Assembly (NCBI GenBank): GCA_964016885.1
Contig: OZ024749.1
Span: forward strand, 4,278,001-4,342,000
DNA from: Eledone cirrhosa
Taxonomy: Eukaryota
Length of the DNA stretch: 64,000 bases
Direction of reading: 5' to 3'
Part shown: piece after piece, positions 15,901 through 64,000 of the stretch
How positions within the stretch are numbered: position 1 is the first letter of the stretch
How the letters are laid out: every line of letters starts with the position of its first letter
Program-made: the position numbers and the translations under genes
Notes under the pieces: generated by a model
Told to the model about the DNA's origin: nothing
The model's input: only the letters and a program-made list of their open reading frames with translations
Databases searched by the model: none

Positions 15901-16677
15901 ATGTAATATAGTATATATAATATAATTTTATATAATGTAATATAATATATATATAATATAATATAATTTTATATAAAGTAATATAAATTAATGCAGTTTG
16001 CATTGAAATATATTTGTTCACAAATCAAAGCCGTTTGACGTTAAGTGAGTTGCTTATATTATTAAAAGAATTGCAAGATTTAAATTAATATATATTTTCT
16101 TACTGAGTAATAACTGTTTCTACTTTAGGCACAAGGCCAGCAATTACCCAGTGCGTTACTGGTACTTTATTTCATCGACCCCGTAAGGATGAAGGGCAAA
16201 GTCAACCTCGGCGGGATTTGAACTCAGTAATATTACTGAGTAATAACACATTCTATTAATATTTATAAAATAAAAAAATACAAACGTCAAATAAAATTTA
16301 AAAAAATACGAAAATACGAATAAAGAAATACGAATAAGTATTTTCTATAATTGTTCGTAGGAAAGGAACTCTATCTGCCTCGACTATGTATTCCAGTTGT
16401 TCGATCACTGAAATGCCTGCTCAGGAAATTAATATATACGTTGCTGTGCGTTCAAAAGACAAATGCACACTTAATATAACATCACAGTTTTCAGTGAGTT
16501 TCAATGTAACATCGGTGCATGCCAAACCAAGCTATACATTACACGTACAGTCCCATCAAACAATGACTTCCTAACCATTTCTGTTCCCATTATTCCACTT
16601 ACCAACACGGGTCGATGTCCTACACACATTCACATCCAGAGCATATAACTGTCATAATGATGTGTGTATATATATAG

Positions 16678-16977
16678 AAAAAAAGATGAAATCGAAAATG
16701 TAACTGGAGACTTATTTAAAAAAAAATATACATATTTATTTGGTTCCTTTACCGGTAGAGATGGAAGGTCTGTGGTTTTCACAGACCCTCCATCTCAACT
16801 CTACTTTTGAAAAGCAGAAGAACTGCGAAACTGGTAAAGGAACCAAATAAATATATATATATTTTTTAAATAAGACTCAGGTTGCATTTTCGATTTCATC
16901 TTTTTTTCTTTATACTTTCACTCGTGTAGGACACCTCGGTTATTTTTCATGCTGTAAAATAAACCTCACTTTCTAAT
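16678..16977. repeat. Fold-back PLE-like end; homolog at ~63825-64000
   Basis: Arms at 16678-16757 and 16830-16910, with HHR 3' half GAAAC(T/C)GGTA and tail ACTCGTGTAGGACACCTCG. Confidence 0.7.
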
Positions 16978-16997
16978 ATATATATATATATATATAT

Positions 16998-19900
16998 GAA
17001 TATAGACATAGAATATTCGAAAATATTCTGTATGTTTATAATAAACATTTTGAAGACCTAATCGCTATAGAATAGAATACGTCACGTATTACAATTAGAT
17101 TCTCGATAAAAGCAAGGGAAGTAATCTACGCGTTTCATTCTTATTAGAAATCTTCAGGACTACATATCCAGTGCTTTTATCGAGAATGACACAGCTAGAG
17201 ACTTATAGAATACTTAGCTGTGTACAGGAACTGGTTTGAAAGAGCGGTTGCCGGTCCGGCAGAAATTAGAAATTGGAATAAATGCTCTGAAATAGCGATA
17301 TATATGTGAATATAGACATAGAATATTCGAAAATATTCTGTATGTTTATAATAAACATTTTGAAGACCTAATCGCTATAGAATAGAATACGTCACGTATT
17401 ACAATTAGATTCTCGATAAAAGCAAGGGAAGTAATCTACGCGTTTCATTCTTATTAGAAATCTTCAGGACTACATATCCAGTGCTTTTATCGAGAATGAC
17501 ACAGCTAGAGACTTATAGAATACTTAGCTGTGTACAGGAACTGGTTTGAAAGAGCGGTTGCCGGTCCGGCAGAAATTAGAAATTGGAATAAATGCTCTGA
17601 AATAGCGATATATATGTGAATATAGACATAGAATATTCGAAAATATTCTGTATGTTTATAATAAACATTTTGAAGACCTAATCGCTATAGAATAGAATAC
17701 GTCACGTATTACAATTAGATTCTCGATAAAAGCAAGGGAAGTAATCTACGCGTTTCATTCTTATTAGAAATCTTCAGGACTACATATCCAGTGCTTTTAT
17801 CGAGAATGACACAGCTAGAGACTTATAGAATACTTAGCTGTGTACAGGAACTGGTTTGAAAGAGCGGTTGCCGGTCCGGCAGAAATTAGAAATTGGAATA
17901 AATGCTCTGAAATAGCGATATATATGTGAATATAGACATAGAATATTCGAAAATATTCTGTATGTTTATAATAAACATTTTGAAGACCTAATCGCTATAG
18001 AATAGAATACGTCACGTATTACAATTAGATTCTCGATAAAAGCAAGGGAAGTAATCTACGCGTTTCATTCTTATTAGAAATCTTCAGGACTACATATCCA
18101 GTGCTTTTATCGAGAATGACACAGCTAGAGACTTATAGAATACTTAGCTGTGTACAGGAACTGGTTTGAAAGAGCGGTTGCCGGTCCGGCAGAAATTAGA
18201 AATTGGAATAAATGCTCTGAAATAGCGATATATATGTGAATATAGACATAGAATATTCGAAAATATTCTGTATGTTTATAATAAACATTTTGAAGACCTA
18301 ATCGCTATAGAATAGAATACGTCACGTATTACAATTAGATTCTCGATAAAAGCAAGGGAAGTAATCTACGCGTTTCATTCTTATTAGAAATCTTCAGGAC
18401 TACATATCCAGTGCTTTTATCGAGAATGACACAGCTAGAGACTTATAGAATACTTAGCTGTGTACAGGAACTGGTTTGAAAGAGCGGTTGCCGGTCCGGC
18501 AGAAATTAGAAATTGGAATAAATGCTCTGAAATAGCGATATATATGAGAATATAGACATAGAATATTCGAAAATATTCTGTATGTTTATAATAAACATTT
18601 TGAAGACCTAATCGCTATAGAATAGAATACGTCACGTATTACAATTAGATTCTCGATAAAAGCAAGGGAAGTAATCTACGCGTTTCATTCTTATTAGAAA
18701 TCTTCAGGACTACATATCCAGTGCTTTTATCGAGAATGACACAGCTAGAGACTTATAGAATACTTAGCTGTGTACAGGAACTGGTTTGAAAGAGCGGTTG
18801 CCGGTCCGGCAGAAATTAGAAATTGGAATAAATGCTCTGAAATAGCGATATATATGTGAATATAGACATAGAATATTCGAAAATATTCTGTATGTTTATA
18901 ATAAACATTTTGAAGACCTAATCGCTATAGAATAGAATACGTCACGTATTACAATTAGATTCTCGATAAAAGCAAGGGAAGTAATCTACGCGTTTCATTC
19001 TTATTAGAAATCTTCAGGACTACATATCCAGTGCTTTTATCGAGAATGACACAGCTAGAGACTTATAGAATACTTAGCTGTGTACAGGAACTGGTTTGAA
19101 AGAGCGGTTGCCGGTCCGGCAGAAATTAGAAATTGGAATAAATGCTCTGAAATAGCGATATATATGAGAATATAGACATAGAATATTCGAAAATATTCTG
19201 TATGTTTATAATAAACATTTTGAAGACCTAATCGCTATAGAATAGAATACGTCACGTATTACAATTAGATTCTCGATAAAAGCAAGGGAAGTAATCTACG
19301 CGTTTCATTCTTATTAGAAATCTTCAGGACTACATATCCAGTGCTTTTATCGAGAATGACACAGCTAGAGACTTATAGAATACTTAGCTGTGTACAGGAA
19401 CTGGTTTGAAAGAGCGGTTGCCGGTCCGGCAGAAATTAGAAATTGGAATAAATGCTCTGAAATAGCGATATATATGTGAATATAGACATAGAATATTCGA
19501 AAATATTCTTTATGTTTATAATAAACATTTTGAAGACCTAATCGCTATAGAATAGAATACGTCACGTATTACAATTAGATTCTCGATAAAAGCAAGGGAA
19601 GTAATCTACGCGTTTCATTCTTATTAGAAATCTTCAGGACTACATATCCAGTGCTTTTATCGAGAATGACACAGCTAGAGACTTATAGAATACTTAGCTG
19701 TGTACAGGAACTGGTTTGAAAGAGCGGTTGCCGGTCCGGCAGAAATTAGAAATTGGAATAAATGCTCTGAAATAGCGATATATATGTCGCTATTTCAGAG
19801 CGGTTGCCGGTCCGGCAGAAATTAGAAATTGGAATAAATGCTCTGAAATAGCGATATATATATCGCTATTTCAGAGCATTTATTCCAATTTCTAATTTCT

Positions 19901-21743
19901 GCCGGACCGGCAACCGCTCTTTCAAACCAGTTCCTGTACACAGCTAAGTATTCTATAAGTCTCTAGCTGTGTCATTCTCGATAAAAGCACTGGATATGTA
20001 GTCCTGAAGATTTCTAATAAGAATGAAACGCGTAGATTACTCCCCTTGCTTTTATCGAGAATCTAATTGTAATACGTGACGTATTCTATTCTATAGCGAT
20101 TAGGTCTTCAAAATGTTTATTATAAACATACAGAATATTTTCGAATATTCTATGTCTATATTCACATATATATCGCTATTTCAGAGCATTTATTCCAATT
20201 TCTAATTTCTGCCGGACCGGCAACCGCTCTTTCAAACCAGTTCCTGTACACAGCTAAGTATTCTATAAGTCTCTAGCTGTGTCATTCTCGATAAAAGCAC
20301 TGGATATGTAGTCCTGAAGATTTCTAATAAGAATGAAACGCGTAGATTACTTCCCTTGCTTTTATCGAGAATCTAATTGTAATACGTGACGTATTCTATT
20401 CTATAGCGATTAGGTCTTCAAAATGTTTATTATAAACATACAGAATATTTTCGAATATTCTATGTCTATATTCACATATATATCGCTATTTCAGAGCATT
20501 TATTCCAATTTCTAATTTCTGCCGGACCGGCAACCGCTCTTTCAAACCAGTTCCTGTACACAGCTAAGTATTCTATAAGTCTCTAGCTGTGTCATTCTCG
20601 ATAAAAGCACTGGATATGTAGTCCTGAAGATTTCTAATAAGAATGAAACGCGTAGATTACTCCCCTTGCTTTTATCGAGAATCTAATTGTAATACGTGAC
20701 GTATTCTATTCTATAGCGATTAGGTCTTCAAAATGTTTATTATAAACATACAGAATATTTTCGAATATTCTATGTCTATATTCACATATATATCGCTATT
20801 TCAGAGCATTTATTCCAATTTCTAATTTCTGCCGGACCGGCAACCGCTCTTTCAAACCAGTTCCTGTACACAGCTAAGTATTCTATAAGTCTCTAGCTGT
20901 GTCATTCTCGATAAAAGCACTGGATATGTAGTCCTGAAGATTTCTAATAAGAATGAAACGCGTAGATTACTTCCCTTGCTTTTATCGAGAATCTAATTGT
21001 AATACGTGACGTATTCTATTCTATAGCGATTAGGTCTTCAAAATGTTTATTATAAACATACAGAATATTTTCGAATATTCTATGTCTATATTCACATATA
21101 TATCGCTATTTCAGAGCATTTATTCCAATTTCTAATTTCTGCCGGACCGGCAACCGCTCTTTCAAACCAGTTCCTGTACACAGCTAAGTATTCTATAAGT
21201 CTCTAGCTGTGTCATTCTCGATAAAAGCACTGGATATGTAGTCCTGAAGATTTCTAATAAGAATGAAACGCGTAGATTACTTCCCTTGCTTTTATCGAGA
21301 ATCTAATTGTAATACGTGACGTATTCTATTCTATAGCGATTAGGTCTTCAAAATGTTTATTATAAACATACAGAATATTTTCGAATATTCTATGTCTATA
21401 TTCACATATATATCGCTATTTCAGAGCATTTATTCCAATTTCTAATTTCTGCCGGACCGGCAACCGCTCTTTCAAACCAGTTCCTGTACACAGCTAAGTA
21501 TTCTATAAGTCTCTAGCTGTGTCATTCTCGATAAAAGCACTGGATATGTAGTCCTGAAGATTTCTAATAAGAATGAAACGCGTAGATTACTTCCCTTGCT
21601 TTTATCGAGAATCTAATTGTAATACGTGACGTATTCTATTCTATAGCGATTAGGTCTTCAAAATGTTTATTATAAACATACAGAATATTTTCGAATATTC
21701 TATGTCTATATTCACATATATATCGCTATTTCAGAGCATTTAT

Positions 21744-21749
<6 letters not shown>
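16998..21749. mobile_element. 310-bp tandem array 2 (candidate retrozyme), fold-back: 9 units with HHR on minus strand, complex junction at 19788-19866, then ~6.1 units with HHR on plus strand
   Basis: Same unit as array 1 apart from two substitutions. Fold-back centre is GCGATATA|TATATCGC at 19858/19859. Flanked by (TA)n. Confidence 0.9.
19998..20040 (+). ncRNA. Minimal type I hammerhead ribozyme, CUGAAGA variant (6 plus-strand copies from 19998; 9 minus-strand copies from 17121-17163)
   Basis: GUAGUC-CUGAAGA-U-UUCU-AAUA-AGAA-U-GAAA-CGCG-UA^GAUUAC. Confidence 0.9.
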
Positions 21750-29333: not shown

Positions 29334-29404
29334 GGCGTTTTGGTGTAATGGTTACACATTGGTCCGGCAAACCAAGGACGTGGGTTCATGTCCCATGTAC
29401 GCCA
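29334..29404 (+). tRNA. tRNA-like cloverleaf (GGC at anticodon position); probably a pseudo-tRNA within a repeat
   Basis: Acceptor GGCGT/ACGCC, D stem GTGT/ACAC, anticodon stem TTGGT/ACCAA, T stem GTGGG/CCCAT. C33 and the T loop TTCATGT are non-canonical. Confidence 0.5.
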
Positions 29405-63829: not shown

Positions 63830-64000
63830 AAACCCTCCATATTAATTCTACTTTTGAAAGGCGAAAAGAACTGCAAAACCGGTAAAGGAACAAAATAAAT
63901 ATATTTAAAAAAAAAGACTCCAGTTGCATTTTCGATTTCATCTTTTTTCCTTATACTTTCACTTGTGTAGGACACCTCGTTTTTTTTTTTCATTTTGTAA

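What the first reader, a model, noticed from the sequence alone, without database searches (positions are those of the whole stretch)
17121..17163. The only two fixed differences between arrays 1 and 2 fall at tolerant ribozyme positions
Seen by eye: the arrays differ at CUGAUGA vs CUGAAGA and at loop II AACA vs AAUA, and nowhere else in 310 bp. Established: position 7 of the core is the freely variable one. Each array is homogeneous for its variant on both sides of its inversion. Inference: each array was copied from a single template, as rolling-circle reverse transcription would predict, and ribozyme function is preserved. Two sites are weak statistics.
Basis: partly seen in the sequence, partly recalled or inferred. 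Interest (0 to 1): 0.7.

Follow-up and report, generated by a model that had tools for sequence, protein, structure and literature searches.

The report
Selection on a jumping ribozyme circle
The two differences are common variants of a 310-letter repeat with a predicted self-cutting RNA fold that occurs about 15,500 times in this animal genome, and changes shared by whole repeat blocks avoid the cutting site and the predicted RNA stems, which suggests that each block was copied from one working RNA molecule, likely a circle.

Summary
Observation confirmed. Arrays 1 and 2 differ at exactly two fixed sites, hammerhead N7 (U/A) and loop II (AACA/AAUA). Alone this shows little: two random changes miss core and helices 63% of the time. 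Both sites are genome-wide subfamily markers of a very young retrozyme (about 15,500 units, at least 1,286 insertions).

In 153 arrays, array-wide changes hit core or helices 1 of 43 times, against 46 of 200 for within-array changes (p=0.001; 0.012 without A>G). Only 59 of 15,539 units carry a core change; 70 are expected from within-array noise and 227-313 if neutral. Eighteen private variants span both arms, implying a one-unit template. Array-wide changes are enriched in sense-strand A>G at paired sites (14 of 43 against 16 of 200), ADAR-like but confounded with selection.

Against: no RNA or cleavage data; two arrays fit a linear multimer; units are exchanged after insertion; array 2 has five within-array variants. 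The scan already reported this family's two-armed Penelope-type layout, and ADAR-type marks in Penelope copies, on other DNA of this genome.

The parts
3164..4041 (-). Array 1, left arm (about 2.8 units), ribozyme sense pointing left, ending in a TA tract at unit position about 130-139 (numbered from the cleavage site)
4040..6236 (+). Array 1, right arm (about 7.1 units), ending at the tail (unit position 165-167) in a TA tract; haplotype U7 / AACA
16988..19786 (-). Array 2, left arm (9 units); haplotype A7 / AAUA; within-array changes at 18547, 19167, 19510
19787..19861 (.). Array 2 inversion junction, with short re-copied inverted pieces of the unit
19856..21749 (+). Array 2, right arm (6 units), ending at the tail (unit position 165); within-array change at 20042 and 20662 (outer stem I)
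17115..17171 (-). Type I hammerhead of the first array-2 unit: stem I with internal loop, core CUGANGA (17157-17151), stem II, GAAA (17136-17133), palindromic helix III, predicted cleavage between 17127 and 17126
   Evidence: sequence; fold; weak Rfam HH9 match, 17 bits, E 0.27, below gathering score 52; two-copy fold
17153..17153 (-). Fixed difference 1: core position N7 (A here, U at 3329 in array 1); U, A and C are all fixed somewhere in the family
17143..17143 (-). Fixed difference 2: loop II, third base (U here, C at 3319 in array 1); C, U and A are all fixed somewhere in the family
17099..17187 (-). Perfect 16-bp helix (17099-17114 with 17172-17187) under the ribozyme; holds two of the three most recurrent array-wide A>G changes (unit 20 and 259)
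16671..16990 (.). Older inverted fragments (80% and 89% identical) of the terminal repeat of an RT + GIY-YIG Penelope-like element; array 2 lies in the TA tract at its end

Best explanation
The two arrays are separate insertions of two common variants of a young 310-bp hammerhead repeat, and each was likely reverse-transcribed by a Penelope-type enzyme from one monomeric RNA, probably a circle, that would have needed a working ribozyme and an intact fold to serve as template. Shown: the family, its head-to-head layout with two fixed outer ends in TA tracts, uniformity within arrays, and the lack of core and helix-breaking changes among array-wide variants. Inferred steps: (1) a tandem array is transcribed; (2) neighbouring hammerheads pair through the palindromic helix III and cut out 310-nt monomers; (3) monomers close into circles; (4) a GIY-YIG endonuclease cuts (TA)n, and both DNA ends prime on the same RNA at two sites about 26-35 nt apart; (5) each end copies many laps, and the arms join at variable points with 0-5 bp overlap. 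Any change in that one RNA, whether inherited from a donor unit or made on the RNA, fills both arms. A unit with a dead core is not released and founds no array, so variation collects at N7, loop II and position 10.1. Part of the array-wide variation likely comes from A-to-I editing of the RNA stems (this step about 0.55).
For: Two fixed sites only. Flanks of the two arrays show no BLAST match. Genome counts of the exact motif: U7/AACA 4,208, A7/AAUA 1,369, intermediate A7/AACA 815, of 6,956. 160 of 173 loci are two-armed, 149 of 160 left ends map to one site, and 133 of 160 have more than one unit in both arms. 149 of 153 arrays are uniform at both sites. 18 private variants fill both arms. 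Same-index variants are shared between arms in 5 of 156 comparisons, against one linear multimer read twice. No indel at 1,650 crossings of the predicted cleavage site in the kept units, and 5 of 250 inner arm ends lie within 5 nt of it, against end-to-end jumping on linear monomers. Core or helix-breaking changes: 1 of 43 array-wide vs 46 of 200 within-array, p=0.001; without A>G 1 of 29 vs 43 of 184, p=0.012. Outside the ribozyme arm, non-A>G array-wide changes hit strongly paired sites of the circular fold 0 of 18 times vs 43 of 132, p=0.002. Core changes in 59 of 15,539 units vs 70 from noise and 227-313 if neutral. Two copies fold into a double hammerhead. The inverted copy, one-sided tail and microsatellite targets match Penelope-like elements (PMC8557442). 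A>G: 14 of 43 vs 16 of 200; recurrent at unit 259, 20 and 276 on 6, 5 and 4 backgrounds; 819 units carry A259G in whole-array blocks, against 9 scattered units for the CpG change C255U in the same helix.
Against: No RNA, circle or cleavage was observed. The Rfam match is below threshold. Both window haplotypes have a U-U mismatch at 10.1/11.1 instead of the usual pair; if A10.1 was ancestral, the commonest haplotype carries a fixed helix-weakening change. In the sample alone the core test is not significant (0 of 43 vs 10 of 214, p=0.22). The genome count does not show whether the 59 core changes cluster. L089 and L068 share variants at the same rank in both arms, as a linear multimer predicts. 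Repeated variants within arrays and between arms (L047, L069, L074, L178, L198, array 2) show unit exchange or duplication after insertion. One dropped unit (L210) has a deletion across the cleavage site. No Penelope terminal repeat with homology to the unit was found among 37 GIY-YIG loci. A>G opposite U keeps pairing, so selection also favours it. The 5' neighbour bias is clear by events (U 19, G 0 of 27) but not by distinct sites (G 1 of 14, p=0.31). The rarer variants, including the A>G ones, were not listed at a 1% share in contigs of X2 and X3. In PMC-independent tests of other retrozymes, 8 of 9 Xenopus dimers showed no cleavage in vitro, so an intact motif does not prove activity.
Confidence: 0.72

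Rival explanations
1. Each array is uniform because of DNA-level homogenisation: a short insertion grew by unequal exchange or slippage and was kept uniform by gene conversion, as satellites are.
For: Variants repeat at two-unit spacing in array 2 and at other spacings in L074, L047, L163, L209; some are shared across arms at different ranks (L069, L178, L198). Li et al. 2026 discuss local amplification from a Penelope terminal repeat.
Against: Of 200 within-array variants 176 are single, 15 are below 20% and 9 are at 20-50%, so few are on their way to fixation, while 18 private variants fill both inverted arms. DNA-level turnover cannot see the RNA fold, yet array-wide changes avoid core and stems and are strand-biased. 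Both outer ends are fixed.
Confidence: 0.1
2. The template is a long uncut linear transcript of an existing array, read from both DNA ends; arrays are uniform because the donor was.
For: L089 has two units of one haplotype outermost on both arms and another haplotype inside; L068 shares a variant in the outermost unit of both arms. A short helix III predicts slow cleavage (PMC4209133).
Against: 151 of 156 same-rank comparisons are unshared (though some variants may post-date insertion). L059 switches at one site midway along one arm and is uniform on the other. Array-wide private variants and the purge of core changes need a one-unit step in some generation.
Confidence: 0.12
3. The single template is a linear cleaved monomer, and the enzyme jumps from its 5' end back to a 3' end at each lap.
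For: It gives the same one-unit bottleneck and the same need for cleavage. Occasional template changes are seen (L089, L059).
Against: No indel at 1,650 crossings of the cleavage site and no pile-up of arm ends there (5 of 250). Jumps to other molecules should mix haplotypes, but only 4 of 153 arrays are mixed at the two sites.
Confidence: 0.04
4. Uniformity and inversion are assembly artefacts (collapsed consensus, fold-back reads).
For: Tandem arrays are hard to assemble; some recurrent variants could be mis-ordered reads.
Against: Arrays differ from each other by stable haplotypes, arms are unequal with two different fixed ends, single-unit variants are retained, and contigs of public runs show the same main variant sites.
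Confidence: 0.02

Closest known systems
Metazoan non-LTR retrozymes (Cervera and de la Pena 2020, PMC7229834: part 2 of 6 and passages seen; Li, Clavereau and Pollet 2026, bioRxiv 10.64898/2026.07.22.740005: parts 1-3 of 5 seen)
   Same: Tandem units of 150-450 bp, low GC, one type I hammerhead per unit, no LTR, no coding capacity seen, stable predicted fold, thousands of copies, proposed circular RNA intermediate and Penelope-type helper.
   Different: Here nearly all insertions are head-to-head with two fixed ends ('inverted' and 'selection' have 0 occurrences in PMC7229834). The family is young enough to separate template-stage from later changes. RNA circles were shown in coral and mussel but not here.
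Penelope-like elements with GIY-YIG endonuclease (Craig et al. 2021, PMC8557442, passages; Cervera and de la Pena 2014, PMC4209133, passages)
   Same: Inverted 5'-truncated copy next to the main copy, a 30-40 bp tail on one end only, (TA)n targets, hammerhead with a short palindromic helix III expected to act as a dimer.
   Different: No ORF; both arms are multi-unit; no sequence-matched autonomous partner found among 37 GIY-YIG loci.
Twin priming of LINE-1 (recalled, no paper read)
   Same: Both cut DNA ends prime on the RNA and give an inverted insert joined with short microhomology.
   Different: Here both ends start about 26-35 nt apart at fixed sites and copy the same sequence many times, instead of dividing one linear RNA between them.
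ADAR A-to-I editing of repeat dsRNA (Porath et al. 2017, PMC5625713, passages)
   Same: A>G on the RNA strand at paired adenosines, with few upstream G; octopus is reported there as a very high editor.
   Different: Here the changes are single, recurrent and present in genomic DNA across whole arrays; editing itself was not observed.

Membership tests
Type I hammerhead ribozyme | Core CUGANGA ... GAAA ... UH in a three-helix junction, helix I open | tested here: met
   Sequence; stems I and II in folds; Rfam HH9 aligns over the full model but at 17 bits, E 0.27, below the gathering score.
Type I hammerhead ribozyme | Paired 10.1-11.1, usually G-C | tested here: not met
   U-U in both window arrays; A or G at 10.1 restores a pair in 37 of 153 arrays.
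Type I hammerhead ribozyme | Short palindromic helix III allowing a dimeric active fold | tested here: met
   Two copies fold with a 6-bp shared helix III and free cores, -22.3 kcal/mol vs -8.1 for one copy; prediction only.
Type I hammerhead ribozyme | Self-cleavage | not testable with these tools
   Only indirect: depletion of core changes.
Non-LTR retrozyme | Tandem 150-450 bp units with a complete hammerhead in consecutive units, low GC, dispersed | tested here: met
   310 bp, 34% GC; 15,480 intact-core units; 1,286 tail ends.
Non-LTR retrozyme | Expressed as linear and circular monomer RNA | tested here: inconclusive
   No run on record as RNA was listed; contigs cannot tell a circle from a tandem array.
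Non-LTR retrozyme | No protein-coding capacity | not tested
   No ORF scan was run on the unit; at 310 bp it cannot hold an RT.
Non-autonomous Penelope-like element | Inverted truncated copy, one-sided 30-40 bp tail, microsatellite target | tested here: met
   160 of 173 loci two-armed; ends at about 130-139 and 165; TA flanks.
Non-autonomous Penelope-like element | Homology to the terminal repeat of an autonomous element in the same genome | tested here: inconclusive
   RT + GIY-YIG ORFs exist, but only 37 loci were checked and none showed a terminal repeat matching the unit; 10,597 candidates, 150 scored.
ADAR-edited retroposed copies | Sense-strand A>G excess at paired sites with upstream-G depletion | tested here: inconclusive
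   Excess, pairing and recurrence met; neighbour bias only by events; confounded with selection for G-U pairs; no RNA data.

The most novel reading that the evidence does not exclude
These arrays are a natural deep-sequencing record of single RNA circles: each insertion stores many reverse-transcriptase laps over one molecule. The family therefore gives in vivo evidence that hammerhead catalysis and the fold of the whole circle are required for retrozyme mobility, and that ADAR edits made on the circle in the germ line become inherited alleles that found new subfamilies.
Probability: 0.45. Interest if true: 0.75.

Novelty: new variant of a known kind. Interest (0 to 1): 0.58.

Why it matters
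That retrozymes spread through ribozyme-made RNA circles is proposed in the papers read, but rests on RNA detection and co-occurrence with Penelope elements. A very young family with about 1,500 multi-lap insertions separates changes that passed through the RNA from changes that came later. That split tests whether the ribozyme is needed for mobility, maps which positions of the circle are free in vivo, and may show RNA editing feeding inherited variation. Four literature searches listed no paper making this test; the library lacks most subscription papers and supplements were not read.

Tried and rejected
1. DNA search of the own genome with the whole unit returned nothing; that search skips very common words, so patterns were used instead.
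2. Rfam at gathering threshold found only one tRNA-like match in the window.
3. Expression: no RNA holder listed; the six runs are contigs of unknown kind, so they say nothing on expression, circles or editing. Runs X4-X6 hold the unit as one looped 340-nt contig, which fits a tandem array as well as a circle.
4. Local duplication of one array into the other: rejected; no flank similarity, different junctions, and both haplotypes are common genome-wide.
5. Fold-back copying of the first cDNA as the source of the second arm: rejected as the general route; the tail-less arm is the longer one in 69 of 160 arrays.
6. Search for the helper element: 37 GIY-YIG loci checked, no matching terminal repeat.
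7. Dimeric circles (alternating units throughout both arms): not seen in the variant lists.
8. Junction mapping failed in 15 of 125 arrays; those rows were left in the 250 arm ends and add noise.
9. Inosine as the cause of the mixed N7 site in L162: not adopted, since U is the majority there.

Full report
1. Observation. The window holds two arrays of a 310-bp unit, at 3164-6236 and 16988-21749, each with an inversion. Against an array-2 unit, all array-1 hits differ at the same two positions and no other (window 3319/17143 and 3329/17153). On the ribozyme strand these are loop II AACA vs AAUA and N7 U vs A. Array 2 also has five within-array substitutions at three sites; two of the sites recur at a two-unit spacing, and one lies in outer stem I. 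Two random changes would avoid core and helices 63% of the time, so the window alone cannot show selection.

2. The ribozyme. The unit folds more stably than shuffles (z = -4.5). It has a type I hammerhead on a perfect 16-bp helix. Rfam HH9 aligns along the full model but below threshold. Helix III is a short palindrome, and two copies fold into a double hammerhead, the form described for metazoan hammerheads (PMC4209133, passages). Position 10.1/11.1 is U-U in both window arrays. Both haplotypes give the same circular fold energy. That N7 is freely variable, and the numbering, are recalled; the passages read did not state it. Loop II makes tertiary contacts in canonical hammerheads (PMC3088659, passages), so it is not free a priori.

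3. The family. This 3-Gb genome (G000) has 15,539 matches to the ribozyme frame and 1,286 exact tail ends. Its identity as an octopus is my inference from recalled repeats and the scan's notes; no call of mine names it. Of 6,956 matches to one 35-letter motif, 4,208 are the array-1 type, 1,369 the array-2 type and 815 the intermediate A7/AACA. The two differences are therefore subfamily markers that arose in separate steps. The flanks of the two arrays do not match: they are independent insertions.

4. Sample. I fetched the first 100 tail ends on contig C1 and 73 more from one tail subtype on C1-C3, and added the two window arrays. This is not a random sample. Two duplicated loci were removed (173 left). 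153 arrays with at least three near-full units were analysed (1,574 units). 14 units with clustered differences were dropped, and 14 of 214 within-array substitutions were removed because they equal an allele fixed elsewhere. 'Array-wide' means at least 80% of at least three covering units.

5. Layout. 160 of 173 loci are head-to-head. One arm ends at unit position 165 by selection of the sample, and 149 of 160 other arms end at about 130-139, both in TA tracts; 133 have more than one unit in both arms. Arms join with 0-5 bp overlap in 81 of 125 mapped arrays, at spread-out positions; 15 mappings failed. An inverted truncated copy, a one-sided 30-40 bp tail and (TA)n targets are described for Penelope-like elements (PMC8557442, passages). 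Long RT + GIY-YIG ORFs exist in the genome. No terminal repeat matching the unit was found in 37 loci. Earlier scan notes report this layout for the same family; I had reached it before the look-up.

6. One template per array. Diversity is 0.0012 within and 0.0098 between arrays. Eighteen variants seen in only one sampled array fill both of its arms. Of 200 within-array variants 176 are single. Variants at the same rank in both arms are shared in 5 of 156 cases. The kept units cross the predicted cleavage site 1,650 times without an indel, and 5 of 250 inner ends lie within 5 nt of it; one dropped unit has a deletion across it. This favours a closed monomer. Against: L089 and L068 fit a linear multimer, and several arrays show repeated or cross-arm variants, so units are also exchanged or duplicated after insertion.

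7. Selection. Changes to core, helix III or pairing in stems I, II and the basal helix: 1 of 43 distinct array-wide substitutions vs 46 of 200 within-array ones (p=0.001); without A>G, 1 of 29 vs 43 of 184 (p=0.012). The 10.1/11.1 pair was kept out of that class because its ancestral state is unknown. The core alone is not significant in the sample (p=0.22). Genome-wide, 15,480 of 15,539 units have an intact ten-base core. The 59 exceptions compare with 70 expected from within-array changes alone and 227-313 if array-wide changes were neutral. Array-wide changes come in blocks of about ten units, so the effective expectation is about 15 arrays. Outside the ribozyme arm, non-A>G array-wide changes avoid strongly paired sites of the predicted circle (0 of 18 vs 43 of 132, p=0.002). 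N7 and loop II are the most variable sites: 7 of 15 possible changes are fixed somewhere vs 27 of 687 elsewhere (p=2e-6, post hoc). That explains why two neighbouring arrays differ exactly there.

8. A>G excess. A>G on the RNA strand makes up 14 of 43 array-wide changes and 16 of 200 within-array ones (p=7e-5). The sites are more paired than other adenosines (p=0.0009). Three sites recur on 6, 5 and 4 haplotype backgrounds. In strong helices, A>G is fixed at 9 of 26 A-U pairs and C>U at 0 of 19 C-G pairs. Genome-wide, A259G is in 819 units, in whole-array blocks among the 100 listed, and C255U in 9 scattered units (one site each). Upstream G is absent by events (0 of 27) but not significantly so by sites (1 of 14); upstream-G depletion is the ADAR motif (PMC5625713, passages). 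Selection for G-U pairs and recombination between templates could give part of this pattern. These rarer variants were not listed in contigs of X2 and X3 at a 1% share. Earlier scan notes report ADAR-type hyper-editing in Penelope copies of this genome; I did not check those loci.

9. Comparison with known systems. It works like a metazoan non-LTR retrozyme and meets the sequence criteria (PMC7229834, part 2 of 6 and passages; bioRxiv 10.64898/2026.07.22.740005, parts 1-3 of 5). Expression as a circle and cleavage were not testable; in the second paper 8 of 9 tested dimers did not cleave. It inserts like a Penelope element, but the helper is not identified. Searches listed no paper that tests selection on retrozyme ribozymes this way or reports edits in retrozyme arrays; PMC7229834 mentions editing only as a possible cause of circRNA heterogeneity. 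Supplements were not read and may bear on this.

10. Verdict. The element is a variant of a known kind. Its value is as an evolutionary test of the circle-and-ribozyme model. Confidence in a single functional monomer template, probably circular: 0.72. Confidence in an ADAR contribution: about 0.55. Interest 0.58.

Noticed in passing
window 16671-16990 and 63803-64000: Fragments (80-89% identical) of the terminal repeat of an RT + GIY-YIG Penelope-like family (L234, L235, L239); those at 16671-16990 are inverted, and array 2 sits in the TA tract at their end. The repeat holds a hammerhead-like stretch with an altered core, by eye only.
   Followed up: partly
window 57903-58161: A diverged (about 76%) inverted relative of the 310-bp unit; similar relatives lie in L036, L100, L105, L114, L132 and L234:1332-1705, sharing the tail region.
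   Followed up: no
L089 (G000:C1:136716276-136726205): Chimeric array: the two outer units of both arms are one haplotype and the inner units another. It fits a linear template, a joint template switch, or regrowth from a broken centre.
   Followed up: partly
L059 (G000:C1:61292870-61302799): A276G is absent from the first four units of the tail arm, present in its inner two and in all seven units of the other arm, as if the template changed during copying and the tail arm was made first.
   Followed up: partly
L162 (G000:C1:300827697-300837626): N7 reads G in 3 and U in 11 units, scattered over both arms, as if one ambiguous base was read repeatedly.
   Followed up: partly
160 two-armed loci: Lengths of the two arms are correlated (rho 0.28, p=0.0004).
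   Followed up: no
runs X4, X5, X6: Three runs filed under other organism codes hold the unit as one looped 340-nt contig with a single haplotype; contamination, a related species or RNA cannot be told apart.
   Followed up: no
L237, L238, L160: A second Penelope-like family has a hammerhead motif about 380 bp after its ORF.
   Followed up: no
window 53361-54626: A 468-bp tandem repeat of 2.7 copies, 98% matches; not examined.
   Followed up: no
window 29334-29404: tRNA-like match (51.8 bits), possibly the head of a SINE.
   Followed up: no
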